NCBI GenBank assembly: GCA_016784445.1
Contig: JADHUR010000003.1
Location: 2,590 to 66,589, forward strand
From: Patescibacteria group bacterium
GTDB taxonomy: Bacteria; Patescibacteriota; Patescibacteriia; UBA1558
DNA length: 64,000 nucleotides
Direction: 5' to 3'
The translations under genes were made by a program, and so were the position numbers. Each line of letters starts with the position of its first letter. Position 1 is the first letter of the stretch. This document shows positions 9,773-36,324 of this stretch, one piece after another. A model generated the notes under the pieces. That model saw only the letters and a program-made list of their open reading frames with translations, was not told the DNA's origin and searched no databases.

Positions 9773-10006
9773 ATGTTTATTGCTATATTTATCTTCATTG
9801 TTGGTTTAGTGTTATTGCTAACTAACTTAGGAGTTCTTGCAACAAGTGTTTGGGATATTGTTTGGCCAGTACTTATAATGGTATTTGCTGTATCTATGTA
9901 CATGCACAAGATGGGTTATTGCAAATGTTGTGGTAAGGGTTCTAAATGTTGTAAGGATGGTGAAGAAAAAGGCCATGGAGATTGCTGTGGTCACGATCAC
10001 AAATAA
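9773..10006 (+). CDS. Small two-TM protein with Cys/His-rich C-terminal tail (putative metal-binding)
   Basis: 77 aa. Two hydrophobic helices, then CKCCGKGSKCCKDGEEKGHGDCCGHDHK (8 Cys and 3 His in 28 residues). Confidence 0.45.
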   Translation: MFIAIFIFIVGLVLLLTNLGVLATSVWDIVWPVLIMVFAVSMYMHKMGYCKCCGKGSKCCKDGEEKGHGDCCGHDHK

Positions 10007-10055: not shown

Positions 10056-10070
10056 ATCCACAGGATAGTC

Positions 10071-10105
10071 TTGACGTTTTTTTTCTACGGTTGTAAAGTA
10101 TTATT
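10071..10105 (+). promoter_or_regulatory. Sigma-70-like promoter (TTGACG-17-TAAAGT) driving the downstream non-coding region
   Basis: TTGACG at 10071-10076, a 17-nt spacer, then TAAAGT. No protein gene follows for about 480 nt. Confidence 0.4.
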
Positions 10106-10106
10106 A

Positions 10107-10420
10107 CTGTTCATTTATGGGGAAAGTGGGAGTTTAAGAACAATTAAAAGGAATATTGTGAAGACTTTCATGCTAATTTCCCTAAGAGCAAAAAAAGACG
10201 ATCTTTTAGGATCGTAAGCGGGTGACACAAAGTCATTCAGCAAAAAATGAGGGATACGGCAGGTTATCGAATAGCCTCAACATAACGAGACTTGTAACCA
10301 CGCAGCCCGATTCCCAAATCAGACCCTTGGTATATATTATCGCTTATCGCATTGTTTTCGGCAGATTACGACGTAGAGCAAGATATTATATATCAGGGGT
10401 TTTTCATTTAATAATATAAT
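10107..10420 (+). ncRNA. Candidate structured non-coding RNA of unknown class (GC-enriched island)
   Basis: Local GC is clearly above the genome background, as it is for the rnpB locus, e.g. gcgggtgacac, gggatacggcagg, cgcagcccgattccc. Hairpin gacgatc-ttttag-gatcgt. Bracketed by the promoter at 10071 and two terminator hairpins at 10466-10528. The only ORF here (10222-10419) is low-complexity and Arg-rich, so implausible. Confidence 0.3.
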
Positions 10421-10423
10421 ATT

Positions 10424-10458
10424 TGACAAATATTTTAATACAATATATTATGTATAAA
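10424..10458 (+). promoter_or_regulatory. Sigma-70-like promoter (TTGACA-17-TATTAT) for the M23 peptidase gene
   Basis: Consensus -35 TTGACA, 17-nt spacer, TATTAT, about 125 nt upstream of the start at 10585. Confidence 0.45.
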
Positions 10459-10465
10459 AGTTCAG

Positions 10466-10530
10466 GGTCGCCCATATTGTGGCGATTTTTTCATTTATAT
10501 AATCACAGGGTTTCTGTGATTTTTTTATTA
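10466..10530 (+). terminator. Tandem terminator/attenuator hairpins in the 5' leader of the M23 peptidase gene
   Basis: gggtcgcc-catattgt-ggcgat + T6, then atcacag-ggtttc-ctgtgat + T7 (perfect 7-bp stem). Confidence 0.5.
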
Positions 10531-10584
10531 ACAAAGGGGTTTGTTAAGTCTGCCCTTTAACAACAAAAAAGAAAGGAGCTTGCT

Positions 10585-12906
10585 ATGTTAAGAATCACAG
10601 CAATGCTAGTAATGCTTACAACATTGGTACTTGGTCAGAATTGGCAGCCAGTGTATGAATTATTTAACCCAAGCTATGCGGATCATTTCTATACTATGAA
10701 TTTGTCTGAGGTAGAACAGGCGGTTAATAGTATGGGGTATAGCAATCATGGAGTAAAGTACAAGTGGTCTACCATTGCCTATGGAACAGGTGTACCAATT
10801 TATAGACTATGGCATGATAGTGATCATTTCTATACCACTTCAATTACAGAAAGGAATAATTGTATTAGTAATGGTTATACGGACGAAGGTGTTGTTGGAT
10901 ATTTAAATCCATCCTCGTCTGGTAATTTAGTGCCTTGGCATAGGTATTACCATTCTCAATGGGATGATCATGCTTATCCATCAGATGATGATGATATTCA
11001 AGTCCTGGTTAATGCTGGTTATCAGTCTGAAGGAATTCATGGTTATGCTAGATCTCTAGAACCTGATGAGATTCCCAATGAAGCACCAAATGCAACTTGG
11101 ACCTCGGAAGTGTTTAGTGAGTATTTCTATGAAGAAATTCACTTTACATGGGTAGGTGTGGATGATAATACTGAGCCTGTAGATATTTGGTATCATATTC
11201 AATTAACTGGAAATAGTTCTTTTGATTATTGGACGCCCGACAATTACTTGAATTGTTGGCCTGGAATAGGTAATCATACATTAACTATAACAGCTAGAGA
11301 TTTGGATGGCTTAGAAGATGAAACGCCATTAATTCATAATTTCACAACTGTTGGAAGATCGCCATATGCACCGGTGAATTTATCTACAATAGTAGATAAT
11401 GACTGTATAATCCTTCATTGGGACTCTTTTGATGAAGAAGTGGTTGGTTTTACTATATGGCGAGATTATGACATGGAAATGGCCAATTTACCGCCATCAA
11501 GCAGAGATTATGAGGATGATGGAGTAGAGATAGGTGGAATATACCGTTATGTTGTGGTTGCATATAATCATTATGGATGGACAGATAGTGAACCAATATA
11601 TGTTCAGTTTCAACCTGATATTATTGGTAATGCTATTAGGTTTGACTATCCTGTTGGTTACCCAGATTTTGATGCTAGTTGGTATGATGCACAAAATTAT
11701 GGTTCTGTTCTGGCTGATCCAGTATTATTCCATTCAGGAAATGACTTAAATAAGTTGAGTGGTGATATGGGTGAGATGATACATGCACCAGCAGATGGTA
11801 CCATTGTTTATAAAAACAATGATGCTGCTGGTTGGGGCAGGTGCCTGATAACAAAACATCAGGCTGAATATGGTACATCATTTTCATTTCCTGATGGCAC
11901 TTTTCACGACAAGGTGTATTTTCTATATGCACATTTGGATGAGATAGTTAATTATGAGGATATTGAGATTAATCAAACAATAGTAGAAAGAGGTGAAGTT
12001 ATTGCTACGCTCGGGAATTCTGGTATTACAACTGGACCTCACTTACATATTGAGTGTTGGTCAGATATGCCAGATGGATATCCACTGGGCTATGGATATT
12101 ATACTAATTTACCAGATAATAAGTATGATGTTCTAGAATTTATTTCCACTAATCGTGTCGTTGGTAATTCATATGATTTGTATGTTCATACATATGATGA
12201 TGAATTTGAAGTATTGACAGATTATTGGGAGATAGTACCCGGAGCTCAGGAAATGCAGTATTTGCCACTTGGATATAATAATTATTTATATGTGGCAGAA
12301 ACAATTCAGGATGAGAGTTGTAGATGGACTCTTAATACTCAGCTTATTGGAGAGTATGAATTATCCATATATATTCCTAATCGTCACTATACTGAATCAA
12401 ATGCACATTATGTATTACAGAGAGGAGGCTTTGAAGATTTGGATATATATGTGAACGGCTCTAATTATAGCAATGAATGGGTGAGTATTGGAAATTACTC
12501 TTTCAATAATAGTGAGAGTAATTATTTAATGCTTTATTCAGATAACTCAGAGGCTCCTATTAAAGAAGTATCTGCAGATGCAATCAGATTACATTTCTTA
12601 GGAGATGTAGGGGGTTTTTTATCTGTTGATGAGTCGCAAGACATTCTGATGTCCAATCTATATTGCTATCCCAATCCTTTCAATTCTACTGTTATGATCA
12701 ATTACACATTATCTGTATCAGGAGTTGTAAATCTTTCTGTATACAATATATTAGGTCAAAAGATGGTAACTTTAGTAAATGAATATATTGGTGAAGGAAT
12801 AAGCAGTGTATATTGGCAAGCAGATAATTTATCTAGTGGTATATATTTGGTAGTTTTACGATCTGGTGATTTCAATCAAACCATTAAGGTCAATTATCTT
12901 CGTTAA
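10585..12906 (+). CDS. Secreted M23 (LytM-type) metallopeptidase with T9SS-type C-terminal sorting domain
   Basis: 773 aa. Signal peptide MLRITAMLVMLTTLVLGQ. M23 motifs HSGNDL..(HxxxD), GTIVYKNNDAAGWGRCLITKH, GNSGITTGPHLHIE (HxH). The C-terminal 80 aa YPNPFNSTVMINYTLSVSGVVNLSVYNILGQKMVTLVNEY..SGIYLVVLRSGDFNQTIKVNYLR fit the Por_Secre_tail (T9SS CTD) consensus. Confidence 0.75.
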   Translation: MLRITAMLVMLTTLVLGQNWQPVYELFNPSYADHFYTMNLSEVEQAVNSMGYSNHGVKYKWSTIAYGTGVPIYRLWHDSDHFYTTSITERNNCISNGYTDEGVVGYLNPSSSGNLVPWHRYYHSQWDDHAYPSDDDDIQVLVNAGYQSEGIHGYARSLEPDEIPNEAPNATWTSEVFSEYFYEEIHFTWVGVDDNTEPVDIWYHIQLTGNSSFDYWTPDNYLNCWPGIGNHTLTITARDLDGLEDETPLIHNFTTVGRSPYAPVNLSTIVDNDCIILHWDSFDEEVVGFTIWRDYDMEMANLPPSSRDYEDDGVEIGGIYRYVVVAYNHYGWTDSEPIYVQFQPDIIGNAIRFDYPVGYPDFDASWYDAQNYGSVLADPVLFHSGNDLNKLSGDMGEMIHAPADGTIVYKNNDAAGWGRCLITKHQAEYGTSFSFPDGTFHDKVYFLYAHLDEIVNYEDIEINQTIVERGEVIATLGNSGITTGPHLHIECWSDMPDGYPLGYGYYTNLPDNKYDVLEFISTNRVVGNSYDLYVHTYDDEFEVLTDYWEIVPGAQEMQYLPLGYNNYLYVAETIQDESCRWTLNTQLIGEYELSIYIPNRHYTESNAHYVLQRGGFEDLDIYVNGSNYSNEWVSIGNYSFNNSESNYLMLYSDNSEAPIKEVSADAIRLHFLGDVGGFLSVDESQDILMSNLYCYPNPFNSTVMINYTLSVSGVVNLSVYNILGQKMVTLVNEYIGEGISSVYWQADNLSSGIYLVVLRSGDFNQTIKVNYLR

Positions 12907-12911
12907 ATAAT

Positions 12912-12941
12912 GCCCCCTCTATTAATTTAGAGGGGGTTTTT
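12912..12941 (+). terminator. Intrinsic terminator
   Basis: ccccctcta-ttaattt-agaggggg perfect hairpin followed by T5. Confidence 0.75.
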
Positions 12942-20383: not shown

Positions 20384-20841
20384 TGTTTTTAAATATCAAA
20401 CAAGGAGGATTTAGTATAGTGCAAGTATTATTGGTATTAGCTATTTTTTTAGTAATAGCAAGTATGGCCATACCATCTTTGTATCAATTTCAAGTTGGAG
20501 CTCAAGTAGATACAGTAGCAGCTGAACTTGGTCAAAGTTTAAGGAGAGCACAATCTAGAGCTATAGTTGGTTATGATAATACAAATTGGGGAGTATATTT
20601 TGAAGAGGATGCTTATACTATATATTCAGGCAATGATTATAATACTAGAAATACCGATAGAGATGAAAGTTATCCATATTCTAATTCTATATTAATTATT
20701 AATGATTTTTCAGATGAGATTGTTTTCACAAGAATTTCTGGACTACCTAGTTCTGAAGGAAACATTACTTTAAGTAATAGTATGAATTCAGATCAGTCGA
20801 CTATAACTATTAATTCTTTAGGAGTAATTGAGTATAGATAA
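20383..20841 (+). CDS. Pseudopilin/minor pilin with Gln at position +5
   Basis: Class III signal KQGG|FSIVQVLLVLAIFLVIA. Mature N-terminus F-S-I-V-Q instead of F-T-L-I-E. Confidence 0.55.
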   Translation: MFLNIKQGGFSIVQVLLVLAIFLVIASMAIPSLYQFQVGAQVDTVAAELGQSLRRAQSRAIVGYDNTNWGVYFEEDAYTIYSGNDYNTRNTDRDESYPYSNSILIINDFSDEIVFTRISGLPSSEGNITLSNSMNSDQSTITINSLGVIEYR

Positions 20842-23791
20842 AATGATAAAGAAAATAAATAATAGAGGTTTTTCTTTAATTGAAGCTATTGTAGCTTTAG
20901 GAGTTTTTGCTTTACTTGCTGCAACTGTTTCGAGTACAGCTGGTCTTGGTTATTTATCTGAGAAGCAAAGCGGAGAAAGAATTATCGCCCAAAATTATTC
21001 AACGGAGGCTATGGAGGCTGTTAAAAGTATTCGTGAAAGGGGTTGGTCAGAACTTTTAATTGGTAATCATGGTTTAGATAAAACTAGTGGTTATTGGGAA
21101 TTTAATGGCACAGAAGATATTATCGGAAATTATACTAGGCAAATTATTATTGCAGCTGTTTATAGAGATCAGGATGGATTAATTGTGCCTGAAGTAGATG
21201 GTAATATAGATAATCACACTAAACTTATAACAGTAATAGTATCTTGGGCATTATCACCTAGTGCTAATAATGAATTAATTATTAATACATACTTAACAAA
21301 TTGGGAAAGTAAAGATTGGTCTCAAACAAATTGGTCAGGAGGAGATAATCAGTCAGAATATTTAGATGAAACTAAATTTTGGGAAGTGAGTGAAGGAATA
21401 GATACTGAAACCATTGGAGAGGTTAAACTTGCAACAGTTGGTGCCATTCCTAGTCCTTATGCCTTATTGATGCATATGGACGGTCCACGTTATAAAGCTA
21501 CAGACATTATAGATAATAATAATTTCAGTGATTATTCTGGAATAAGTCCAGATATTATTTGGCCAAATTGGACTGAAACAGGTTTGGGTTCAGAGACAGA
21601 TAGTATTACTGGGCAACAAGGACAAGCTGCTGAAATTAGTTTTGATTGGTGGCTAGGCCTTGGTGGTATAGAGCAAACATCTATCCCAGTAGAAGGGGAT
21701 ACAACTTATCAGATAGCTTTTTATCTTAAGGGAGATATCTCATATTTTAGTTTTACAATTAAGGATGATGAAAATAATTATTTAAAATCTGATGGAAATT
21801 GGAGCACTTGGTTTAGTACAAATTATGTAAACACATCAGAGGATTGGACGCAGTTTAATACAAGCTTTACTACACGTAGCGGTATTACGAGTATTGATTT
21901 GAGCCTATCAGGACTTGCAGCCAGTTCAGATCAATGGTTTGCAGTTGATGAAATTAGTTTATCTAGAGAAGTAGTATATGATGATGGTCCATTTGGTAAT
22001 CATGGTTATAAATTACCCGATGATAATGATGGACCAAATTATGAAACAGGAAATTTTGCAGATGGACTAAATTTTGATGGAGCTGTGGGTATAGATAATG
22101 GCGATGCAGTTATTATTCCTTCAGCAGATAGTTTAAATATAGTATCAGCTATTACATTAGAAGCTTGGATATATCCAGAAAATATTGGTAATGAGGATAG
22201 AGAAATTGTAAACAAATGGTCTTGGACTAGTGGGGATTATAGATCTTATAGATTAACGGTAACTGGTGCAGATAAATTGGAATTTGCTTTAAGTAGCGAT
22301 GGAGGTACTGGTAATGGGCATGAGTATACGGTTATAAGTGGTAGTAAAATAAATGTTAATGAATGGCAGCATGTGGTTGGCACATATAATGGTACAGAAA
22401 TGAAAGTGTATATTAATAGTAATGAAGAGGGCTCAACTTCATATAATGGTGGTATTTTTAATAGTGGTGAAAATAGTAATGTTATGATTGGTTCAATAGA
22501 TAATAATTTAAATAATAATCATAGATTTGAGGGTATAATAGATGAAGTATCTATTGAGAATATTGCTTTGAGTGAGACAGAAGTTTTTGATCATTTTACA
22601 AATTCTCCACTAACTCCAGAGGCTATTATTACTTGGACATCACCAGTTCCAGAGGGAACATTTATGGTAGATAAGAAAGTAGCAGGAATGCATGTAATTG
22701 GTGATTATCTATATCTAGCCTTGCTTGAAAAGAAAAGAGTAGAGGTCTTTGATTTATCTACGAGTGCTACAGAGCCAGTTTCTTTAGGATTAATTATTAC
22801 AACCGGTAAGTCTGAGGATGTATTTACTTATGGTAATTATATTTATGTTATGACGGATAATGCTAGTCCTGGTTTGGAAATTTATCAATATACTAGTACG
22901 CCTATAGATGCAGTTTTTGTGGGGGATATAAACTTGAGTACAGCTCCAAGTGGTTTATGGATTGATGGAGATATTATGTATATAGCTTTGCAAAGTAATG
23001 AAGTGGAAGTTTATAGTTTATTAGCAGACCCCCTTATACCAATATCTCTTGGTAATTTTTCAACTGTGAGCGATACAACAGATATTACAATTTATGGAGA
23101 CTATGCTTATGTAAGTTTAGATAATGATATTCAAGCTATGCAAGTATTTGATATATCATTAGATCCTAGTAATCCAAGCTCAACAGATATTGTTGGAGCT
23201 ATAGATACTCCAATTGGTATTACATCTAGAGAAGGATATTTATTCTTGGTAACTGGAGGAGCTAGTCGTAAAGTTCTTGTCTATGATATTTATGAGATTC
23301 CAGCAAATCCGGCCGCAATAGGTGATTTAGATATTGCAGATAATGGTTGGGACATGGCAACTAGAGGAAGTTATTTATATATAGGTTTAGGTGGAAGTAG
23401 TAAGGGTGTTCAGGTTTTTGATATGACATTTATGCTTGCAGGAGGTGCTGGACAGTCTAATTATGAAGTATATGGTAGTTTAGAATCTTCTGCTTTTGAT
23501 ACTACTTCTACTTCAGGTTTTAATTTTATATCTTGGTCAGAAATGTTACCATCTGCCGAAGAAAATGTTCGTGTTCAAATAAAGACAGCAGATACTTTAC
23601 TTGGACTTGACTCTGCAATTTGGTCAGGTGCTAGTGGTAATGGAACATACTATGATGATGGTATTGAAAATATTATACCAATTATATCTAGTCATAATGG
23701 AGATAGATATATAAAATATATGGTTCATTTATATGGCTCTGGTGATGACACTCCTATTATGACAGATATTAATATTAATTATACTCCTTGA
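20828..23791 (+). CDS. Giant pilin-like protein (987 aa) with LamG/ConA-like domain and LVIVD beta-propeller repeats
   Basis: Prepilin N-terminus NNRG|FSLIEAIVALGVFALLA. Middle region WSWTSGDYRSYRLTV..EWQHVVGTYNGTEMKVYING is typical of Laminin_G_3. C-terminal half has at least 6 repeats of G(D/N)Y(A/L)Y(V/L)..(V/I)(F/Y)D(I/L)S (LVIVD repeat). Confidence 0.65.
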   Translation: MSIDKMIKKINNRGFSLIEAIVALGVFALLAATVSSTAGLGYLSEKQSGERIIAQNYSTEAMEAVKSIRERGWSELLIGNHGLDKTSGYWEFNGTEDIIGNYTRQIIIAAVYRDQDGLIVPEVDGNIDNHTKLITVIVSWALSPSANNELIINTYLTNWESKDWSQTNWSGGDNQSEYLDETKFWEVSEGIDTETIGEVKLATVGAIPSPYALLMHMDGPRYKATDIIDNNNFSDYSGISPDIIWPNWTETGLGSETDSITGQQGQAAEISFDWWLGLGGIEQTSIPVEGDTTYQIAFYLKGDISYFSFTIKDDENNYLKSDGNWSTWFSTNYVNTSEDWTQFNTSFTTRSGITSIDLSLSGLAASSDQWFAVDEISLSREVVYDDGPFGNHGYKLPDDNDGPNYETGNFADGLNFDGAVGIDNGDAVIIPSADSLNIVSAITLEAWIYPENIGNEDREIVNKWSWTSGDYRSYRLTVTGADKLEFALSSDGGTGNGHEYTVISGSKINVNEWQHVVGTYNGTEMKVYINSNEEGSTSYNGGIFNSGENSNVMIGSIDNNLNNNHRFEGIIDEVSIENIALSETEVFDHFTNSPLTPEAIITWTSPVPEGTFMVDKKVAGMHVIGDYLYLALLEKKRVEVFDLSTSATEPVSLGLIITTGKSEDVFTYGNYIYVMTDNASPGLEIYQYTSTPIDAVFVGDINLSTAPSGLWIDGDIMYIALQSNEVEVYSLLADPLIPISLGNFSTVSDTTDITIYGDYAYVSLDNDIQAMQVFDISLDPSNPSSTDIVGAIDTPIGITSREGYLFLVTGGASRKVLVYDIYEIPANPAAIGDLDIADNGWDMATRGSYLYIGLGGSSKGVQVFDMTFMLAGGAGQSNYEVYGSLESSAFDTTSTSGFNFISWSEMLPSAEENVRVQIKTADTLLGLDSAIWSGASGNGTYYDDGIENIIPIISSHNGDRYIKYMVHLYGSGDDTPIMTDININYTP

Positions 23792-28871: not shown

Positions 28872-30004
28872 TGAATAAATATATATTAACTTTAAATGCG
28901 GGCAGTGCTACTTTGAAGGTAGCTATTTTTTCTAATGACTTACAACCAATTTTAACAGCTCAAGTTGAAAAGATAGGACAAGCTGGTAGTTTTTTACAAA
29001 TTATTTCTAAAGGAAATGATATTAGTATAAAGAAAAGGATGTCTAATCATACTGCAGCATTTAAGACATTATTTAAATTATTAGATAGGGATATTATAAA
29101 TAATATTAATATAGTTGGACATAGAGTAGTTCATGGAGGAATATATTATAGTAGTCCAGTTAAAATTGATAAGACAGTTATTAATAATATTAAGAAATTA
29201 AGTGATTTAGCACCACTTCATAATCCTAAGAACTTAGCTGTTATTATAGCTGCTAAGAAGCTATTATCTAATATTAATCATTTCGCTGTTTTTGATACTG
29301 CATTTCATCAAACGATTCCAGCTTATGCTTATTTATACTCATTACCTATTAAAGTAAGTAATCAATATAATATTAGAAAATATGGTTTTCATGGAATGTC
29401 ACATCAATACTGCATGCAGGAAGCTACTAAGAAGTTAAAGAAGCCTGCAAATTCACTTAATCTAATTACTGTACACTTAGGAAATGGTGCGAGTATTACT
29501 GCAATTAAAAATGGTAAATCAGTAGACACTTCAATGGGATTCACGCCACTTGCAGGACTTACTATGGGAACAAGAGTGGGAGACATTGATCCTGGCATAA
29601 TTTTCTATCTTTTAAGCAAAGGTGTGAATTATAAAAAATTAGATAAAATATTTAATAATGAATCTGGTATTAAAGGTTTATTTGGCTCACAGGATTTAAG
29701 GGATGTATTAATAACAGCTGGATATAAGATTCCAGGGTATACAAAACCTTCATCTATTAAAGGAATAAAGAAACAAGCTCAACTTACTTTAGATATATTT
29801 ATTTATGATATTTTAAGATATATTTATACATATTTAGGTGTATTAAAAGATGTAGATGCTATTGTATTCACAGGAGGAATTGGAGAGAGAAATGCAGATA
29901 TACGTAAGCTCATTATCAAGGGCAGTAATTACAAAGGAAAGACAATGGTTATTAAAGCTAATGAAGAATTAATGATGGCCAGTTTAATAAAGAATAAGAG
30001 ATGA
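28871..30004 (+). CDS. ackA: Acetate kinase
   Basis: [15 protein letters not shown] (ADENOSINE motif), [30 protein letters not shown]. Confidence 0.85.
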
Positions 30005-31146
30005 AGCAAATATTATACATACTGAGTTTTTTAATTCTACTATTACCGGGAGTAGTTTTTGCAGTAGATTATGATTTGTCTGTTAGTAGTTCAGATATAT
30101 CTTTTTCAGAGAATCTTTTAATCGCAGGCGATACTGTCCGTATATATGCAACTGTACATAATGTAGGTTCTCAGGATGTTCGTGGGTATATAACTTTCTT
30201 TCAAGGTTCTGCTGTTATTGATGATTCGCAAATATTATCTATTAGACCTGGAAGTAAATCTGATGCTTGGGTAGATTTTGTAGTACCAAGTAGCGAGTTC
30301 AATATTTTAGCTCGTATACAAGGTACAACACCAGCAGATCAGAACTCAAATAATGATCAAGCATTAACAGCTTTAATAAGACCAGATATAGATACAGATA
30401 GAGATGGTATTGCTAATGCAATAGATCCTGATGATGATAATGATGGCCTAACAGATATTCAAGAAAGAGCGGGAGGCACTGATCCATTAAAGGTAGATAC
30501 AGATGATGATGGTTCAAATGATAAAGTAGATATTTTTCCATTAGATCCTAATGAGAAGATGGATTCAGATAATGATGGTATTGGTAATAATGCGGACCCA
30601 GATGATGATAATGATGGACTTACAGATATAGAGGAGGATATTAATGGAACAGATCCATTAAAGGCAGATACAGACGGTGATGGAGTAAATGATAAGGAAG
30701 ATAATTATCCACTAGATTCTAGTCGCTTTGAAATTGCTAGAGATATTTTTGAACCAACAGATAATGAAGATGAAGATATTCAAGAGGTAGAAACTGGTAA
30801 TGAAACATTACTAGATATTATAAGTGATGAGGTGGATAAGATTAAAGATAGTGATTCTGATGATTTAATCAAACATGAAAAAGTATTATCTATTGATGGT
30901 CCAAAAGTAGATGAAAGTAATGAAAATAATAATATCTTAGATTTAATTACTAATTGGTGGTTTTGGTTAACAATTAGTGGTATAATTCTATTAATAATAG
31001 TTGTTTACTATATCTATATAATCATTGTTAATCGCAATGTCGAAGGATTTGAAGAAACAATGCCAATATTAAAAGAAGCTAAAAAAGTTAAATCTAATAG
31101 AGAACCGGAAATATTAGATTTACGTAAAATTAAAAGAAAAAAGTGA
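30001..31146 (+). CDS. Surface protein with CARDB-like N-domain, thrombospondin type-3-like Ca-binding repeats and C-terminal TM anchor
   Basis: Signal peptide. [22 protein letters not shown] and [22 protein letters not shown] (DxDxDG repeats). C-terminal [27 protein letters not shown] plus a basic tail. Confidence 0.5.
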
Positions 31147-32186
31147 GGGAACTTCTAACAGGAAATGATGTAGTAGTAAGAGCCGCATTGAATGCGGGTG
31201 CTTTGGGTTATGCGGGTTATCCAATAACGCCAACTACAGAAATAATGACTGCCTGGAATAGCGCCTCTATTAAAGATAAGAATTTGAGGTTTTTACAAAC
31301 AGAAGATGAAATGTCTGCTGGCTTTGTAACCATTGGTATGATTATGGGAGGCCTTAAAGCTTTTACAGCTACCGGAGGTCCTGGTAATGTACTGATGCAA
31401 GATCCTCTTAATATGGTAGAAAATATGCGTATCCCTTTTGTTGCTGTCATTGGTCAAAGAGGTGGACCATCCACTGGTTCTGTCATATATTCGCAGCAGG
31501 AAGTCATTTTAACAGGCTGGGGAGGTAATTCTGAAGGATATAGAGTTGTATACTCACCAATGAATATACAAGAGCTTTATGATTATACAATTAAAGCATT
31601 TAATACTGCTTGGACATATAGATTCCCAACACTTGTTCTAACTGATGGTTATGTTGTTAAAACCAGGCAAGAAGTTAATATATATAAACCAAAGAAAATA
31701 GTTAAATCATATCCATTATTATTAAAGTCTGAAAAACGTAATCCAAAGAAAGAATCAAATTATGTAAATTTATCAAATACCTTTGTTACTGAAGAAGAAG
31801 CATTTGAAGCAAATAAAGTATTAATGGATGACTTAATGAAAATGAAACCTAAAGTTGTTGAGTCAGAACTATATAAGAAGGGGAGTATTAATACCTTAGT
31901 GATTGCTCATGGTCTTGTTGCTGGAGCTGTTAAAGAAGCTATTAATACAGATGGTAAGAAAATGAAATTTGGCATGCTAAGACCAATTACTTTAAATCCA
32001 TTTCCAGATATTGCTTTAAAGAAGGCATTAAAAGGAATTAAGAAAATTATTATTGTAGAATCAGCTCATAATCAGCTTCTAAAACTTGTTAAAGAAGCTC
32101 TTTATGGTTTAAATATTCCAATTAAACATTATGGTCGACCAGGCCTTGGTGTTACACCTGAAGAAATATTAAAATTAATTAAATAA
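31143..32186 (+). CDS. porA: 2-oxoacid:ferredoxin oxidoreductase alpha subunit (POR/VOR type)
   Basis: GTG start. [28 protein letters not shown] is the conserved N-terminal core of OFOR alpha subunits. Confidence 0.75.
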
Positions 32187-32188
32187 TT

Positions 32189-32677
32189 ATGAAATTTAAT
32201 AACAAAGGTTTTACATTATTAGAGCTATTAGTGGTAATAGCCATCATTGGACTTTTAAGTACTATTGCTGTTACGTCTTTGAATTCTGCTAGGGTAAAGG
32301 CAAGGGATACAAAACGTCTTGGTGATATGAAAGCTATTCAAACAGCGCAAGAATTTTACTTTGATGAAAATAATACTTATGGATGTTTGGTTAAAGGAGC
32401 TGTTAGTGCATGTAGTGACTTAGATAATTATATGAATCTTGATACTGTTAAGGATGGAAGATGGGCTGATGGTGATAAATGTACCAATACTACAGTGGTA
32501 GCGGGATATGCAGTAACGGATTGCGATTATGCCTTTGCTGTTCCTAATGCAGGGGAAGGTTATAAAGTAGTTTTTTATTTAGAGGGTGCATCTAGTGCCG
32601 GAAATACAGCAGCAACTTTGTGTGGCGTGACGGCTCAAGGTCTTCAATGTCCAGTTGTAGCATATGTAGCACCATAA
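32189..32677 (+). CDS. Type IV pilin-like protein embedded in the OFOR operon
   Basis: NNKG|FTLLELLVVIAIIGLLSTIAV, then ARVKARDTKRLGDMKAIQTAQEFYF (pseudopilin alpha1 signature). Four Cys in the head domain. Confidence 0.7.
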   Translation: MKFNNKGFTLLELLVVIAIIGLLSTIAVTSLNSARVKARDTKRLGDMKAIQTAQEFYFDENNTYGCLVKGAVSACSDLDNYMNLDTVKDGRWADGDKCTNTTVVAGYAVTDCDYAFAVPNAGEGYKVVFYLEGASSAGNTAATLCGVTAQGLQCPVVAYVAP

Positions 32678-32690
32678 TAATTAAATTTAA

Positions 32691-33440
32691 ATGACAAATT
32701 TAAAAATCCCAAAATGTTGGAAAGTTTCATCTAAACCACATAATTTCTGTGCTGGTTGTGGTTATCCTTTAATGTATAAAGCATTAGGATACAATATAGA
32801 TGAACTTAAAATTCAGAATAATACCTTTGTTGGGTTAGATATTGGTTGTGCTTTGCTTTCTTGGGATTTCTTAAATGTAGATACTATGCAAACCCATCAT
32901 GGTAGAACTATACCAGTTGTTGTTGGGCTTAAGAAAACTAAGCCTAAAGCAGTAGGCATTGCAATAGTTGGAGATGGTGGTGGTTATGCAATTGGAGCAC
33001 AGCATTTAATTAATGCACGTATGCGTAATGAACCTATTACGGTAATTGTTATCAATAATGCTGTATATGGCATGACAGGTGGTCAAGAGGCACCAACCTC
33101 ATTACCAGGCCAAAAGACATCTACAACAGTAGCTGGGGCAGATTCACACCTTATACAAGGTCCTAGAATGTTATCTGAGATGCTGGATGAGGAGGTATAT
33201 ATTGCAAGAACTTCAGTAGATAATCCGGTACAAATGAAAAACTATATCCGTAAAGCCTTAGAGTGGCAAATAAATAATAATGGATTCTCACTGGTTGAAG
33301 TATTATCTTTTTGTCCAACTAATTGGCATACAGATGCTAAGGAAACAAGAGAGTTTTTAAATAGAATGAAAAAGCAGTATCCAGTCGGTGAATTTAAAGC
33401 TGCAAAACGTAAACCTAAAGAAGATGCATCACTTGAATAG
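32691..33440 (+). CDS. porB: 2-oxoacid:ferredoxin oxidoreductase beta subunit (TPP-binding)
   Basis: FCAGCGYP.., VGDGGGYAIGAQHLINA.., INNAVYGMTGGQ TPP-binding motifs. Confidence 0.8.
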   Translation: MTNLKIPKCWKVSSKPHNFCAGCGYPLMYKALGYNIDELKIQNNTFVGLDIGCALLSWDFLNVDTMQTHHGRTIPVVVGLKKTKPKAVGIAIVGDGGGYAIGAQHLINARMRNEPITVIVINNAVYGMTGGQEAPTSLPGQKTSTTVAGADSHLIQGPRMLSEMLDEEVYIARTSVDNPVQMKNYIRKALEWQINNNGFSLVEVLSFCPTNWHTDAKETREFLNRMKKQYPVGEFKAAKRKPKEDASLE

Positions 33441-34522: not shown

Positions 34523-35608
34523 ATGGATTGTCAAGAGAATACACCTCGTTTAGAGGTTGAGACTGATGAGACTATTTATGAAATAGAGTTTGGTCAAGTT
34601 CAGATTGAAATAACTGGACGATGCAATATGAGTTGTCAGCACTGCAGAGCATCACATCAGGTAAAAAGAGACATGCCGATAGAGCAGATTGTGAAAATAA
34701 TGAAATTTGCACGTCAGTTTAGCCCAAATTATAAAGAGGTTATTCTTTCGGGAGGGGAACCTTTACTTCACAATGACTTCACTAGAGTATTACAAGAAGT
34801 TCGCCATAGTGGCGGTGATTCCATAACTTTAACTACAAATGGTTACATGTTAGATGAATCACACTTGGATTCAATCCGTAGCTTAGAATTTGAACGTTTT
34901 GTTCTGTCAGTAAGTATTGATAATTTAAGGTCTTCTCTGCATGATGAGTTTCGCATGAAAGCTGGTGCATTTGATAAAGCTGTTAATGCTTTAAAGATGG
35001 TTGCTTATAGCGACATTCCACACTTAATTCCATCAATGCGTTCTACCATTCAGGCTCAGCAGATTGCCGAGATGGAGGAAATGGTCGTCTTTGCTGACAC
35101 TCTTGGTTGTAAGAGAGTATCATTTTCTGCAATTCATCCAGCCGGAAAAGCAATAACAAGGGATGATTTGTGGATGAATGTAGAACAAAAACGTTCTTTT
35201 TTGAAGGAGGTTTATCGATTGAAAGAAGTATTTCCTCATATTAATGTTACAACCAATGATCCTCTTAAATGCTTGCTCCGAGGCAAGAGTGATCTTGGAC
35301 ATTCAGAGGAATTAGTTTTTGATGGTTGCGGTGCTGCAGCAATAACATTTAATGTGGATTGCAGTGGTAACATGACCCCATGTGCATTACTCAATATTCC
35401 AATGATGAATACTTTTGCCTTAACGATTGAGGAAATGAATGAAGCCTATAGTAGTAGTGACATTGTTAGGAATATGCTAGAGATGAATTTAAGTGGTAAG
35501 TGTGGTGCCTGTGAATTGAAATATCAATGTGGAGGTTGTCGTGCACGAGCACTGATTCAGAATGGAGATTATCTAGCAGAGGATTCGCACTGTTGGATTA
35601 ATGTTTAA
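34523..35608 (+). CDS. Radical SAM/SPASM-domain peptide-modifying enzyme
   Basis: CNMSCQHC (Cx3Cx2C), GGEPLL motif. C-terminal SPASM cysteines CGAAAITFNVDCSGNMTPC and CGACELKYQCGGCRARA. Strong SD aaggaggg. Confidence 0.8.
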   Translation: MDCQENTPRLEVETDETIYEIEFGQVQIEITGRCNMSCQHCRASHQVKRDMPIEQIVKIMKFARQFSPNYKEVILSGGEPLLHNDFTRVLQEVRHSGGDSITLTTNGYMLDESHLDSIRSLEFERFVLSVSIDNLRSSLHDEFRMKAGAFDKAVNALKMVAYSDIPHLIPSMRSTIQAQQIAEMEEMVVFADTLGCKRVSFSAIHPAGKAITRDDLWMNVEQKRSFLKEVYRLKEVFPHINVTTNDPLKCLLRGKSDLGHSEELVFDGCGAAAITFNVDCSGNMTPCALLNIPMMNTFALTIEEMNEAYSSSDIVRNMLEMNLSGKCGACELKYQCGGCRARALIQNGDYLAEDSHCWINV

Positions 35609-35661
35609 ATATAAGGGTTGAGCTTTCAAAAAGTTTGACCCTTATTTTTTTATTATAGTAT

Positions 35662-36144
35662 ATGATGTATAATGATTCTATGAATCAAAGTTTACAGAAT
35701 TTTATAGCAAAAAAATACATAAAACCTGGCAAGGCATTAGATCTAGGTGCTGGTCAGTTTGAAGATGTGAAAGGATTAAGTAAACTTGGGTGGAAAGCTG
35801 AAGGTGTAGATATTAATATGGGAGTTAATCTTGAAGAGTCCTTTTTATCCAAGGAGAAACCGTTTGATTTAGTTTATTCAAACTATCTCATACATAAGTT
35901 AAAAAATTTAGAAGTGTTTATCGAGACTATTTATAATAATTTAACAGAGGGTGGATATTTCTTTATACATACTTTTGATAAGTCAGATGAGAATAGTAAA
36001 TCCGAACTAACGGGAGATCTTTTAATGAAGTTGCTTATTAATAGAGGCTTTAAAGATATTAAAGTTGGGCTATTTGATAAGTATGATGATGCAGAGGGTC
36101 ATCAGCATATGCATAAAATTTTGGAAGTAACTGGTAAAAAATAG
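35662..36144 (+). CDS. Small class I SAM-dependent methyltransferase
   Basis: Motif I ALDLGAGQFEDV and motif II/III spacing. 160 aa. Same transcription unit as the rSAM gene. Confidence 0.6.
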   Translation: MMYNDSMNQSLQNFIAKKYIKPGKALDLGAGQFEDVKGLSKLGWKAEGVDINMGVNLEESFLSKEKPFDLVYSNYLIHKLKNLEVFIETIYNNLTEGGYFFIHTFDKSDENSKSELTGDLLMKLLINRGFKDIKVGLFDKYDDAEGHQHMHKILEVTGKK

Positions 36145-36294
36145 TATCAGTGAAAATAAATTATATTGTAGAAAAATCACACGATACAGAGGAGGATGAG
36201 GAGTATTTACTTAAATTGAAGGTAATGTTGGAAAAATTAGAAGAATTAGTTGAAAAATAGTGAAGTTTATAAATACTTAATATCCTGGTATAAT

Positions 36295-36318
36295 AAGAGT
36301 TGCTAATACAACTCTTTT
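36295..36318 (+). terminator. Hairpin + T-tract closing the rSAM-MTase unit (overlaps an extended -10 TGgTATAAT at 36286-36294)
   Basis: agagttg-ctaata-caactct followed by T5. Confidence 0.5.
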
Positions 36319-36324
36319 TAATTT

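What the first reader, a model, noticed from the sequence alone, without database searches (positions are those of the whole stretch)
10585..12906. M23 peptidoglycan hydrolase carrying a T9SS-type C-terminal sorting domain in a T4P-rich, CPR-like context
The 773-aa secreted protein has clear LytM/M23 catalytic motifs (HxxxD, HxH) and a C-terminal 80 residues that match the Por_Secre_tail consensus (YPNPFN..VYN.LGQ..SGIY..L). That consensus is diagnostic of type IX secretion cargo in Bacteroidota/FCB-group bacteria. No T9SS component is visible here, and the rest of the window (pilin density, tiny genes, fermentative core) looks Patescibacteria-like. Either this lineage is FCB-affiliated, or the domain was acquired horizontally and is used differently. 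In an episymbiont-like organism, a secreted M23 endopeptidase could be a weapon against host peptidoglycan.
Basis: partly seen in the sequence, partly recalled or inferred. Interest (0 to 1): 0.55.

Follow-up and report, generated by a model that had tools for sequence, protein, structure and literature searches.

The report
CPR cell-wall hydrolase with T9SS tail
A tiny-genome Candidatus Komeilibacteria (CPR) bacterium carries a conserved, secreted cell-wall-cutting enzyme whose tail is a true homologue of the type IX secretion sorting domain, a signal otherwise tied to double-membraned Bacteroidota-type bacteria, so it is probably used differently here.

Summary
ORF 10585-12906 (+) encodes a 773-aa protein. 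It has a signal peptide, DUF5648 (glycan-binding propeller), FN3/Ig-like spacers, an M23 peptidase with a complete active site (H383, D387, H450, H486, H488), Golvesin_C, and a type A T9SS C-terminal domain (CTD) that scores above the curated cutoffs (PF18962 35.6 bits, cutoff 27; TIGR04183 40.9, cutoff 23).

The window is collinear with a named Candidatus Komeilibacteria genome, so the lineage is CPR, not FCB. The gene is not a chimera: eight independent contigs carry the identical protein, all three displayed in the same context. It is not a recent transfer either: codon usage is native, and full-length orthologues at 41-92% identity lie directly downstream of gap in every Komeilibacteria genome examined. 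The CTD motifs are invariant across the family. Its nearest relatives are CTDs of FCB-type bacteria, one of them next to a PorV gene.

The closest outside relative of the whole architecture sits in a high-GC, CTD-using bacterium, which suggests ancient capture. No T9SS gene and no second CTD protein occur in about 130 kb of non-redundant Komeilibacteria DNA. I could not scan a whole genome, so absence of T9SS is inferred, not shown.

Verdict: a lineage-specific variant of a modular M23 lysin or autolysin. Moderate interest.

The parts
10423..10451 (+). Near-consensus sigma-70-type promoter (TTGACA, 17 nt spacer, TATTAT) dedicated to this gene
   Evidence: Scores 11 of 12 in the consensus scan. 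The -35 TTGACA is invariant in all six orthologous Komeilibacteria loci.
10464..10489 (+). First hairpin plus T-run in the 5' leader, starting a few bases after the predicted transcription start
   Evidence: Terminator-like hit. The sequence is conserved in all six orthologous loci, but no pair shows a double compensatory change. Its role (mRNA 5' stabiliser or attenuator) is inferred.
10501..10521 (+). Second hairpin plus T-run in the 5' leader
   Evidence: Conserved only in the closer relatives L014 and, partly, L004.
10573..10578 (+). Shine-Dalgarno sequence AAGGAG, 6 nt upstream of the ATG
   Evidence: Read directly from the sequence. A GGAG core is conserved in the alignment.
10585..12906 (+). 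Complete CDS, 773 aa: modular M23 peptidoglycan endopeptidase with a type A CTD
10585..10635 (+). Predicted Sec signal peptide (aa 1-17), with cleavage ...VLG|QNW leaving an N-terminal Gln
   Evidence: Read from the sequence; helix at 2-16 in the model. A small residue at -1 and Gln at +1 occur in all 8 full-length orthologues. No signal-peptide predictor was available.
10648..11049 (+). DUF5648 domain (aa 22-155), three beta-beta-alpha-beta repeats; probable glycan-recognition module
   Evidence: PF18885, 99.6 bits. Model pLDDT about 82-91 with three repeats. Described as a three-bladed propeller and as the receptor-binding domain of BSAP-2 and BSAP-3, which target the O-antigen (bioRxiv 10.1101/2025.01.06.631476). 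Treated as a putative cell-wall-binding domain in a GH25 endolysin (bioRxiv 10.64898/2026.04.26.720912).
11077..11619 (+). Two FN3/Ig-like beta-sandwich spacer domains (aa about 165-345)
   Evidence: All-beta in the model. Foldseek hits are dominated by tandem FN3 arrays. A weak fn3 Pfam hit is recorded for orthologue P0002.
11731..12063 (+). Peptidase M23 catalytic domain (aa 383-493): H383/D387/H488 inferred Zn ligands, H450/H486 inferred catalytic residues
   Evidence: PF01551, 50.8 bits, above the 28.7 cutoff. All five residues are invariant in 10 sequences. They align to the motifs of solved M23 enzymes. The ligand and catalytic roles are assigned by analogy with LytM/lysostaphin, from my own knowledge.
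12277..12594 (+). Golvesin_C beta-sandwich domain (aa 565-670); always follows M23 in this wider family
   Evidence: PF25275, 60.7 bits. The M23+Golvesin_C pair recurs in outside relatives.
12667..12903 (+). Type A T9SS-family C-terminal domain (aa 695-773), a seven-stranded beta-sandwich
   Evidence: PF18962 35.6 bits and TIGR04183 40.9 bits. A profile of the family's CTDs hits 5361 CTD proteins. The CTD-only model has pLDDT 90.2 and seven strands. TM is 0.62-0.66 (normalised by target length) to the stand-alone solved CTDs of NucA, RemA and mirolase; chains carrying the PorZ and PorU C-terminal domains are also among the matches.
12912..12937 (+). Strong intrinsic terminator (10-bp stem, 6 GC pairs, T-run) directly after the stop codon; the gene is monocistronic
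9773..10006 (+). Small LiaI/LiaF-like transmembrane protein (77 aa) with a Cys/His-rich tail; a syntenic neighbour between gap and the M23 gene. Whether it belongs functionally is unknown
   Evidence: The tail is conserved only in the closer relative L004.

Best explanation
This is a core, vertically inherited gene of Candidatus Komeilibacteria (CPR/Patescibacteria). It encodes a Sec-exported, modular zinc endopeptidase of family M23 that cuts peptide cross-links in peptidoglycan.

Domain order: signal peptide, DUF5648 propeller (surface-glycan recognition), two FN3/Ig spacers, M23 catalytic domain, Golvesin_C beta-sandwich, type A T9SS-family CTD.

Origin (inferred): the gene, or at least its tail, was captured long ago from a CTD-using FCB-type diderm, became fixed at the base of the Komeilibacteria clade that carries it, and has since been kept under purifying selection.

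Mechanism (inferred):
- The protein crosses the single membrane through Sec; SecD and SecF are encoded in the window.
- Patescibacteria are thought to lack an outer membrane, and no T9SS gene was seen. So the CTD most likely does not act as a T9SS export signal here.
- It more likely acts as a terminal beta-sandwich that retains or positions the enzyme, either on the cell's own surface or on the envelope it attacks.
- DUF5648 and Golvesin_C would supply glycan targeting, and M23 does the cutting.

Whether the substrate is the organism's own wall (growth and division) or a host's wall is unresolved. I put it at roughly even odds.

Shown: the domain content, an intact active site, the lineage, synteny, selection, and the FCB-type affinity of the CTD.
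Inferred: the export route, the absence of T9SS, the role of the CTD, and the target.
For: Domains and active site.

CPR identity of the window:
- Collinear with the 860-kb contig of Komeilibacteria isolate KTG4t2parc1; rpsB 91%, gap 89%, pilB 91% identical.
- Taxonomy.

Not a chimera: eight contigs carry the identical protein, and the three displayed (from three samples) show the same context, with 0 nt differences in the gene.

Vertical inheritance:
- Orthologues at 41-92% identity are found only in Komeilibacteria. The four species-representative genomes that carry the family, out of the 185,579 species genomes scanned, are all Komeilibacteria.
- The gene lies directly downstream of gap in every locus that reaches upstream.
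- Native codon usage.

Selection:
- dN/dS is 0.12 for the whole gene. The CTD's dN (0.032) equals that of the other domains.
- The CTD motifs are invariant across the family.

The CTD is FCB-type:
- The named hits of the CTD profile are Ignavibacteriaceae and Calditrichaeota.
- The nearest CTD (P0039, 52% identity) lies within 5 kb of a PorV gene and a TonB-dependent receptor.
- Fold.

Donor hint: P0062 has the same order (DUF5648, Ig x3, M23, Golvesin_C), lies in a 50-61% GC contig, and directly follows a CTD-bearing gene.

No T9SS context:
- No second CTD ORF in the window or in the Komeilibacteria loci, while the FCB control contigs L016 and L017 were detected.
- No T9SS Pfam family among the called genes.
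- The type IV pilus cluster has PilB, PilC and PilM but no secretin domain.

Targeting role of DUF5648.

The protein evolves faster than its neighbours (70% vs 84-91% identity), as surface proteins tend to do.
Against: - No complete Komeilibacteria genome could be scanned for PorV, PorU, SprA, GldKLMN or outer-membrane biogenesis genes. I examined about 130 kb of non-redundant Komeilibacteria DNA, of which 64 kb comes from this organism.
- Across lineages whose whole proteins are only about 42% identical, each CTD stays close to the canonical FCB consensus. Some are closer to FCB CTDs than to each other. That is what one would expect if a specific CTD-recognising partner still exists, although the reference set was biased towards consensus-like sequences.
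- The conserved residues may simply be structural.
- There is no experimental evidence for activity, export, processing or localisation.
Confidence: 0.6

Rival explanations
1. Host-directed lysin that mimics host cargo. Komeilibacteria would live on FCB-type hosts that have a T9SS. The CTD would dock the secreted enzyme onto the host's surface-exposed CTD receptor and sortase (PorV/PorU), DUF5648 would bind host surface glycan, and M23 would breach host peptidoglycan at the contact site.
For: - The CTD stays canonical and FCB-like across deep divergence.
- The nearest CTD comes from a genome that encodes PorV.
- DUF5648 is the receptor-binding domain of the toxins BSAP-2 and BSAP-3, which target the O-antigen of other cells.
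- Between two strains at about 95% nt identity, the N-terminal 450 aa show twice the background dS and about five times the background dN, and the upstream region cannot be aligned. That suggests allelic turnover of the targeting part.
- The window is rich in type IV pilus genes.
- Peptidase and lysozyme homologues are essential for epibiotic growth of a cultured Saccharibacterium (cited in PMC12102498).
Against: - No host is known for Komeilibacteria.
- An external enzyme would still have to cross the host outer membrane to reach peptidoglycan.
- dN/dS is 0.09-0.14 in every domain, so there is no sign of positive selection.
- That exogenous CTDs bind PorV from outside the cell is my own extrapolation.
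- I have no co-occurrence data.
Confidence: 0.1
2. Housekeeping autolysin with a relic tail. The enzyme is the lineage's space-making or daughter-cell-separating DD-endopeptidase, like MepM or ShyA. The CTD would be an inherited leftover that serves at most as a generic Ig-like spacer.
For: - It is a single-copy, core, syntenic gene next to housekeeping genes.
- The window encodes the organism's own wall machinery: PBP2 by Pfam, and MreB x2, MreC and MreD by my reading of the translations.
- NCBIfam gives weak similarity to MepM, NlpD and ShyA.
- M23+Golvesin_C relatives in another small-gene lineage are likewise syntenic with aaRS genes and carry no CTD.
Against: - A relic should decay. Instead the CTD motifs are invariant in all full-length members down to 41% identity, and its dN equals that of the catalytic domain.
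- The architecture, with two glycan-binding modules and long spacers, is much more elaborate than typical housekeeping M23 enzymes.
Confidence: 0.2
3. Ordinary T9SS cargo. Komeilibacteria, unlike other CPR, would possess an outer membrane and a (possibly reduced) T9SS encoded elsewhere in the genome.
For: - The CTD passes every sequence and fold test for type A CTDs.
- The Sec signal peptide with Gln at +1 resembles Bacteroidota secreted proteins (the 'Q-rule' is from my own knowledge).
- I could not scan a whole genome.
Against: - Patescibacteria are proposed to lack an outer membrane (PMC12102498).
- The genome is about 0.86 Mb, whereas a T9SS needs ten or more genes, including a very large translocon (own knowledge).
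- Only one CTD-bearing family was seen, and no T9SS gene, in all Komeilibacteria DNA held.
- The pilus cluster has no secretin.
- T9SS is described as confined to Bacteroidetes (PMC11611037 abstract).
Confidence: 0.07
4. Artefact: an FCB gene mis-assembled or mis-binned into a CPR contig.
For: The gene's GC is slightly higher than its neighbours' (0.354 vs a mean of 0.318), and a 578-bp non-coding gap lies upstream.
Against: - Eight independent contigs carry the identical protein; the three displayed come from three samples and show the same context.
- The same context occurs in single-contig Komeilibacteria assemblies of 860 kb and 487 kb.
- GC3 and codon usage are within the native range.
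- The GC excess comes from amino-acid composition (1.3% Lys, 11% Tyr+Trp), which the pilins in the window share.
Confidence: 0.01

Closest known systems
Type A CTD cargo proteins of the type IX secretion system (e.g. the RemA, NucA, mirolase and gingipain CTDs; NCBIfam TIGR04183, Pfam PF18962)
   Same: - The C-terminal 80 residues are a true homologue: above both curated cutoffs, same conserved positions, seven-strand beta-sandwich, extreme C-terminal location, and an N-terminal Sec signal.
- Weak tail-only hits to the T9SS-dependent M36 and M6-like protease families.
   Different: - The host lineage is CPR, which is thought to have a single membrane.
- No T9SS machinery is seen in the DNA available.
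- It is the only CTD-bearing family seen in the Komeilibacteria DNA held.
- The passenger is an M23 peptidoglycan hydrolase.
Modular M23 bacteriolysins and autolysins (lysostaphin, LytM, zoocin A; the solved lytic endopeptidase 8s3m)
   Same: M23 fold motifs HxxxD, a central His and HxH are present. The layout is a catalytic domain plus separate targeting domains, and the protein is secreted.
   Different: - The targeting modules are DUF5648 and Golvesin_C rather than SH3b, LysM or the zoocin target-recognition domain.
- Much longer (773 aa), with FN3/Ig spacers and a T9SS-type tail.
- Sequence similarity to solved M23 enzymes is low (E about 1e-3 to 1e-5).
Housekeeping M23 DD-endopeptidases and activators (MepM, ShyA, NlpD, EnvC, DipM)
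   Same: Weak NCBIfam similarity over the M23 core. It is a single-copy core gene in a genome that makes its own peptidoglycan.
   Different: All scores are far below the equivalog cutoffs (22-26 bits against 311-700). There is no LysM or coiled-coil domain. Unlike NlpD and EnvC, the active site is intact.
P0062-type proteins (DUF5648, Ig x3, M23, Golvesin_C, PKD, dockerin-like tail) from a high-GC, CTD-using bacterium
   Same: Same domain order from the N-terminus through Golvesin_C. 35% identity over M23+Golvesin_C, and the best match outside the family (E = 5.9e-37).
   Different: - It ends in a PKD domain and a dockerin-like tail instead of a CTD.
- 1184 aa.
- Its contig is 50-61% GC, with a DGR cassette and a CTD-bearing neighbour gene.
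BSAP-2 and BSAP-3 (Bacteroidales secreted antimicrobial proteins) and a GH25 endolysin carrying DUF5648
   Same: DUF5648 is fused to an envelope-damaging effector and is used, or proposed to be used, for recognising glycan on the target cell.
   Different: The effector there is a pore-forming MACPF domain or a muramidase, and DUF5648 is C-terminal. Here DUF5648 is N-terminal and the effector is M23.

Membership tests
Peptidase family M23 (LytM/lysostaphin-type metalloendopeptidases) | Match to the family profile above the curated cutoff | tested here: met
   PF01551, 50.8 bits against a cutoff of 28.7, residues 383-493.
Peptidase family M23 (LytM/lysostaphin-type metalloendopeptidases) | Zn-binding and catalytic motifs HxxxD and HxH, plus the central catalytic His | tested here: met
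   H383, D387, H450, H486 and H488 are invariant in 10 of 10 family members. They align to FHpGvD, gH and HLHLE of the solved M23 enzyme 8s3m, and to the GPHLH motif of 4rny, 5j1l and 9gy1.
Peptidase family M23 (LytM/lysostaphin-type metalloendopeptidases) | Hydrolysis of peptidoglycan peptide bridges | not testable with these tools
   Needs zymography or muropeptide analysis of the recombinant domain.
T9SS type A C-terminal sorting domain (TIGR04183 / PF18962) | Match to both curated profiles above their cutoffs, at the extreme C-terminus | tested here: met
   TIGR04183 40.9 bits against 23; PF18962 35.6 bits against 27; residues 695-769 of 773. There was no hit to the type B / CHU_C model.
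T9SS type A C-terminal sorting domain (TIGR04183 / PF18962) | Conserved CTD motifs at the same positions as in bona fide CTDs (PNPF-type motif, the G of the central strand, the GxY motif, the C-terminal Lys) | tested here: met
   In an alignment with 66 CTD proteins, mostly FCB-type, the invariant or nearly invariant columns are Y-P-N-P-F-N, I, Y, L-G, G, S-G-x-Y and K, and all are present in the window protein. The same positions are invariant within the Komeilibacteria family.
T9SS type A C-terminal sorting domain (TIGR04183 / PF18962) | Seven-stranded Ig-like beta-sandwich fold | tested here: met
   The CTD-only model has pLDDT 90.2 and seven strands. Top Foldseek matches include T9SS substrate CTDs (8glk_D, 8gl6_D, 8gl8_D, 8qb1_A) at TM 0.62-0.66 normalised by target length, plus the longer chains 5m11 (PorZ) and 6za2 (PorU), which carry C-terminal CTDs. 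E-values are weak (2e-3 to 3e-2) and generic Ig domains score similarly.
Functional T9SS cargo (a protein exported and sorted by a type IX secretion system) | N-terminal Sec signal peptide for the first export step | tested here: met
   The sequence shows an n-region (R3), a hydrophobic core and a small residue at -1, conserved in 8 full-length orthologues. No dedicated predictor was available.
Functional T9SS cargo (a protein exported and sorted by a type IX secretion system) | T9SS machinery (SprA, PorV, PorU, GldK/L/M/N, PorT and others) encoded in the same genome | tested here: inconclusive
   None appears in the 64-kb window or in the other Komeilibacteria loci held, about 130 kb non-redundant in all (Pfam lists; translations). 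That is at most about 7% of any one genome. A whole-genome scan was not possible with these tools.
Functional T9SS cargo (a protein exported and sorted by a type IX secretion system) | Diderm envelope with an outer membrane to cross and anchor to | not testable with these tools
   The literature proposes that Patescibacteria lack an outer membrane (PMC12102498). The pilus cluster in the window has no secretin domain. There are no direct data for Komeilibacteria.
Functional T9SS cargo (a protein exported and sorted by a type IX secretion system) | Several different cargo proteins per genome sharing the CTD | tested here: inconclusive
   CTD profiles found only this one ORF per Komeilibacteria locus, while the two FCB control contigs gave 1 and 2 CTD ORFs within 11-16 kb. 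Only a fraction of each genome was sampled.
Candidatus Komeilibacteria (Patescibacteria/CPR) as the source lineage | Collinearity and high identity of housekeeping genes with named genomes | tested here: met
   19 consecutive genes are collinear with JBLYPX010000001.1. The housekeeping genes among them (for example prfA, rpmE, rpsB, tsf, pyrH, gap, pilB, pilC) are 84-94% identical; prmC (63%), the gspH-like pilin (70%) and the M23 gene itself (70%) are lower. Record titles and taxonomy agree.

The most novel reading that the evidence does not exclude
The CTD is molecular mimicry. A CPR episymbiont secretes a lysin whose tail imitates the sorting signal of its host's own type IX secretion cargo. 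The host's surface PorV/PorU system would then capture the enzyme, and might even covalently anchor it, on the host cell, while DUF5648 reads the host glycan and M23 opens the wall. A related reading the data also allow: Komeilibacteria run a previously unknown, outer-membrane-independent pathway for recognising or anchoring CTDs.
Probability: 0.1. Interest if true: 0.85.

Novelty: new variant of a known kind. Interest (0 to 1): 0.45.

Why it matters
The type A CTD is treated as diagnostic of type IX secretion, a system described as confined to Bacteroidota-type diderms. Here a canonical CTD is fixed and kept under purifying selection in a clade of a CPR candidate phylum with genomes under 1 Mb, a group believed to have no outer membrane.

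If the machinery really is absent, two things follow:
- CTD hits alone should not be read as evidence of T9SS in metagenome annotation. NCBI already names these proteins 'T9SS type A sorting domain-containing'.
- The domain must have a second function, such as retention, partner binding or host mimicry.

It also singles out one conserved, strongly promoted, surface-directed peptidoglycan hydrolase as a concrete candidate for how this uncultured lineage remodels its own wall or a host's. It can be tested with recombinant protein.

Tried and rejected
1. Recent horizontal transfer or a chimera: rejected. GC3 z = 1.46 and codon-usage rank 42 of 56; identical gene in independent assemblies; conserved synteny.

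2. Searching for other CTD-bearing CPR proteins with the CTD alone or with a CTD profile. These searches returned only short proteins or fragments of at most about 180 aa, and the named ones were FCB-type. They could not show whether Komeilibacteria have further cargo.

3. Full-length Foldseek search. It was swamped by tandem FN3 receptors and told me only that the spacers are FN3/Ig-like.

4. I first read the context of P0062 (DGR cassette, FGE-sulfatase proteins) as CPR-like. That was wrong. The contig is 50-61% GC and encodes a CTD protein. I corrected this in the notebook.

5. One or several CTD acquisitions within the family? All-against-all BLAST shows three or four CTD subgroups, each closer to FCB CTDs than to the other subgroups. 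The FCB set had been chosen for similarity to the family profile, so the test is biased and the question stays open.

6. The low dS in the CTD (0.08) looked like a nucleotide-level constraint. It rests on only 4 synonymous differences in about 53 synonymous sites, so it is not informative by itself. Residues 451-773 as a whole sit at the genome background (dS 0.19 against about 0.20-0.27 in neighbouring genes), and it is the first 450 codons that are unusually diverged.

7. Rfam on the upstream intergenic region: nothing near any gathering score.

8. Leader hairpin: conserved, but with no compensatory changes.

9. Literature: no paper links T9SS or its CTD to CPR, and nothing is published on the KTG4t2 genomes or on Golvesin_C in peptidoglycan enzymes.

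10. The lineage of the argS-linked M23+Golvesin_C relatives (P0064, P0069, P0078; 52% GC, with a DUF5671 neighbour) could not be named.

Full report
**1. The observation**

The ORF at 10585-12906 (+) exists as described: 773 aa, ATG start. Its domains:

| Domain | Residues | Score | Curated cutoff |
|---|---|---|---|
| DUF5648 (PF18885) | 22-155 | 99.6 bits | 25 |
| Peptidase_M23 (PF01551) | 383-493 | 50.8 bits | 28.7 |
| Golvesin_C (PF25275) | 565-670 | 60.7 bits | 31.6 |
| Por_Secre_tail (PF18962) | 695-766 | 35.6 bits | 27 |
| T9SS type A sorting domain (TIGR04183) | 695-769 | 40.9 bits | 23 |

The remaining NCBIfam hits are of two kinds. Some are tail-only matches to T9SS-dependent proteases. 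The others are weak matches of the M23 core to MepM, NlpD, ShyA and DipM, far below their cutoffs.

**2. Anatomy**

- The N-terminus, MLRITAMLVMLTTLVLG|QNWQP, reads as a Sec signal peptide.
- An AlphaFold2 model built from the ten-sequence family alignment has moderate confidence (mean pLDDT 68). It shows three beta-beta-alpha-beta repeats at residues 20-156, all-beta domains at about 165-345, the M23 core, a beta-sandwich at 530-671, and seven strands at 692-771.
[quoted passage not shown] It is the receptor-binding domain of the Bacteroidales toxins BSAP-2 and BSAP-3, which target the O-antigen (bioRxiv 10.1101/2025.01.06.631476). It is also a putative cell-wall-binding domain in a GH25 prophage endolysin (bioRxiv 10.64898/2026.04.26.720912).
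- The full-length Foldseek search returned tandem FN3 arrays, which fits spacer domains.
- A CTD-only model, built on 67 sequences, is confident (pLDDT 90.2, seven strands). Its top structural matches include solved T9SS substrate CTDs at TM about 0.6-0.66: NucA 8glk_D, RemA 8gl6_D and mirolase 8qb1, plus chains carrying the PorZ and PorU C-terminal domains. Generic Ig domains score similarly.

*Active site.* In the family alignment H383, D387, H450, H486 and H488 are invariant. They align with the HxxxD, His and HxH motifs of solved M23 enzymes.

*Expression signals.* The gene has its own near-consensus promoter at 10423-10451, and the -35 box is invariant in six orthologous loci. A conserved hairpin with a T-run begins a few bases into the leader. 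There is an AAGGAG ribosome-binding site and a strong terminator at 12912-12937.

**3. What organism**

The window is collinear, gene for gene, with the 860-kb contig of 'Candidatus Komeilibacteria bacterium isolate KTG4t2parc1'. Protein identities include RpsB 91%, GAPDH 89%, PilB 91% and RF1 87%. The NCBI lineage is Patescibacteria group, Parcubacteria group, Candidatus Komeiliibacteriota. The reading 'FCB-affiliated lineage' is therefore refuted.

**4. Real and native**

- The identical protein is on eight contigs. The three shown come from three different samples, have zero nucleotide differences in the gene, and show the same neighbours.
- GC3 (0.241) is 1.46 SD above the mean of the window's genes. 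Synonymous codon usage ranks 42nd of 56 in distance from the rest.
- The slightly raised GC reflects amino-acid composition (1.3% Lys, 11% Tyr+Trp). The pilins of the window share this composition.

**5. Family and history**

- Full-length relatives with the same four Pfam domains range from 92% down to 41% identity. Every one that carries a name is from Komeilibacteria.
- A scan of 185,579 species genomes found four carriers, all Komeilibacteria.
- In every locus that reaches upstream, the gene follows gap directly, usually with a small LiaF-like membrane protein in between. The downstream neighbour varies.
- This is the pattern of a vertically inherited core gene that evolves faster than its neighbours: 70% identity against 84-91% in the closest genome, and 42-49% against about 71% for gap in the distant ones.

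*Selection.* Against the strain that is about 95% identical in nucleotides (L014), dN/dS is 0.12 overall. The CTD's dN (0.032) is the same as in the other domains. Neighbouring genes give dS 0.20-0.27. Residues 451-773 sit at that background (dS 0.19). The first 450 codons have dS 0.46 and dN 0.051, and the intergenic DNA upstream of the promoter cannot be aligned at all. I read this as allelic or recombinational turnover of the targeting and catalytic half against a stable C-terminal half (inference).

**6. Where the pieces come from**

*The core.* An exhaustive phmmer search with the M23+Golvesin_C core against 1.84 billion representative proteins gave 1257 hits at E <= 1e-3, and only six at E <= 1e-30. 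Outside the family, the pair M23+Golvesin_C recurs without any Por_Secre_tail.
- The best outside match, P0062 (E = 5.9e-37), has the same order: DUF5648, three Ig-like domains, M23, Golvesin_C. It ends in a PKD domain and a dockerin-like tail.
- Its contig is 50-61% GC. The gene directly upstream ends in a strong type A CTD, 89 bits against my broad CTD profile.
- A second group (P0064, P0069, P0078) is syntenic downstream of argS, in a 52% GC small-gene lineage that I could not name.

*The CTD.* A profile of the family's CTDs hits 5361 proteins. The named ones are Ignavibacteriaceae and Calditrichaeota. The single closest CTD (P0039, 52% identity) lies within 5 kb of a TonB-dependent receptor and a PorV gene.

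*Most economical history (inference).* An ancestor of the Komeilibacteria clade that carries the gene captured a modular lysin gene, or at least its tail, from a CTD-using diderm of the FCB kind. I could not decide between one and several CTD acquisitions. The family's CTDs fall into subgroups that are each closer to FCB CTDs than to each other, but my FCB set was biased towards consensus-like sequences.

**7. Is there a T9SS?**

- Two CTD profiles, one family-specific and one broad, found no second CTD ORF in the window or in any Komeilibacteria locus. The two FCB control contigs were detected with one and two CTD ORFs.
- No T9SS Pfam family appears among the called genes or in my reading of the remaining translations.
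- The type IV pilus cluster has PilB, PilC, pseudopilins, a 987-aa LamG pilin and a PilM fusion, but no secretin.
- No paper links T9SS or its CTD with CPR.
- All of this is suggestive only. I sampled about 130 kb of non-redundant Komeilibacteria DNA and could not scan a whole genome. The complete contig to scan is named under next steps.

**8. Mechanism**

*Shown:* a secreted-type, multi-domain protein with an intact M23 active site, two probable glycan-binding modules and a canonical CTD, conserved under purifying selection in a CPR lineage.

*Inferred:*
- It is exported through Sec; SecD and SecF are in the window.
- The CTD is not a T9SS signal here. It more likely retains or positions the enzyme.
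- DUF5648 and Golvesin_C target a surface glycan, and M23 cleaves peptidoglycan cross-links.

Self target versus host target cannot be decided.
- For a housekeeping role: the core, syntenic, single-copy status, and the organism's own PBP2/MreBCD wall machinery.
- For a host-directed role: the elaborate targeting architecture, the toxin and endolysin precedents for DUF5648, the fast-evolving N-terminal half, and the precedent that peptidase and lysozyme homologues are essential for epibiotic growth of a Saccharibacterium (PMC12102498).

The persistence of canonical CTD motifs over deep divergence argues against a decaying relic. It leaves room for a specific partner, either endogenous or on a T9SS-bearing host.

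**9. Comparison and novelty**

By every sequence criterion the protein is a member of peptidase family M23, and its tail is a member of the type A CTD family. I do not file it as functional T9SS cargo, because the defining machinery and envelope could not be shown. The available evidence and the literature point the other way.

NCBI's pipeline already labels some of these proteins 'T9SS type A sorting domain-containing protein [Candidatus Komeilibacteria bacterium]', so the domain call itself is not new. The following are new, to my knowledge and within the searched literature:
- the clade-wide conservation;
- the native status of the gene;
- the full architecture;
- the likely diderm origin.

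I rate it a new variant of a known kind, of moderate interest. It would rise sharply if a whole-genome scan confirmed that no T9SS is present and a partner for the CTD were found.

Noticed in passing
window 10060-10420 (compare L014 1-500): The non-coding stretch upstream of the promoter cannot be aligned between two strains that are otherwise about 95% identical in nucleotides. In L014 a unit of about 100 nt, ending in a TTGACA promoter-like box, occurs twice (about 147-245 and 408-510). There is also a terminator-like hairpin on the minus strand at 10215-10198. This could be a strain-variable insertion or recombination hot spot, or a small RNA locus.
   Followed up: partly
window 10585-11934 (codons 1-450 of the M23 gene): Between the window and L014, dS is 0.46 and dN 0.051. 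Neighbouring genes give dS 0.20-0.27 and dN 0.006-0.019, and codons 451-773 are at background. This suggests recombinational replacement of the part encoding DUF5648, the Ig spacers and M23.
   Followed up: partly
window 10464-10489: A hairpin plus T-run starting only about 5-10 nt after the predicted transcription start is conserved in all six Komeilibacteria orthologous loci, but without compensatory changes. It may be a 5' mRNA-stabilising stem or an attenuator for a potentially self-lytic enzyme.
   Followed up: partly
window 10636-10638 (Gln18): All eight full-length orthologues have a small residue followed by Gln at the predicted signal-peptidase site ([GCAS]|Q-x-W-Q). This resembles the Bacteroidota 'Q-rule' for secreted proteins (own knowledge). 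The relative P0062 has Ala-Asp there instead. It may be a trace of the gene's origin.
   Followed up: no
window 9773-10006: A 77-aa LiaI/LiaF-like membrane protein with a C-terminal Cys/His-rich tail (CKCCGKGSKCCKDGEEKGHGDCCGHDHK) sits between gap and the zinc enzyme. The membrane part is conserved. The metal-binding-looking tail is kept in the 70%-identity relative (L004) but not in a more distant one (L005).
   Followed up: partly
window 32189-32677: A type IV pilin-like gene (N-terminal FTLLELLVV motif) lies between what read as the alpha (31143-32186) and beta (32691-33440) subunit genes of a 2-oxoacid:ferredoxin oxidoreductase. The assignments come from my reading of the translations only.
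   Followed up: no
window 20828-23791: A 987-aa pilin-like protein has an N-terminal methylation motif followed by CBM_4_9, Laminin_G_3 and LVIVD repeats. It looks like an adhesin-tipped minor pilin in the PilB-PilC cluster, and it is conserved in the Komeilibacteria relatives.
   Followed up: partly
window 34523-36756: Three consecutive genes have the highest GC3 in the window (0.25-0.31 against a mean of 0.19), and two rank among the most atypical in codon usage. They read as a radical-SAM/SPASM-like protein, a methyltransferase-like protein and a ParB-like protein with a DGLHRY motif. This may be a small transferred islet.
   Followed up: no
window 30001-31146: A secreted or membrane-anchored protein with bacterial thrombospondin type 3 (TSP3) calcium-binding repeats sits between an acetate-kinase-like gene and the oxidoreductase genes. 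TSP3 repeats also follow M23+Golvesin_C in several outside relatives: P0063, P0064 and P0067.
   Followed up: no
window 52189-52579: Bacterial class A RNase P RNA, 182.6 bits, full length. No tRNA gene occurs in the whole 64 kb.
   Followed up: no
window 44254-45303 and 50040-51053: Two MreB-like paralogues occur within 6 kb, the first followed by MreC-, MreD- and PBP2-like genes (PBP2 confirmed by Pfam; the others read from translations). So this small-genome organism keeps an elongasome and makes its own peptidoglycan.
   Followed up: no
L012 5237-11435: Next to P0062, the high-GC contig carries a diversity-generating retroelement (HRDC, bAvd, reverse transcriptase) flanked by two caspase-like (C14) proteins with FGE-sulfatase/C-type-lectin-fold C-termini, which are the likely variable targets.
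   Followed up: no
L013, L018, L019 (P0064, P0078, P0069): A separate orthologous group of M23+Golvesin_C proteins has a conserved N-terminal 'KKNPTNE..GI.WGV..GFVRWRAY' region. It always lies downstream of argS in a valS-tyrS-argS neighbourhood, on contigs of up to 897 kb (L013 is about 52% GC). The lineage is not identified.
   Followed up: partly
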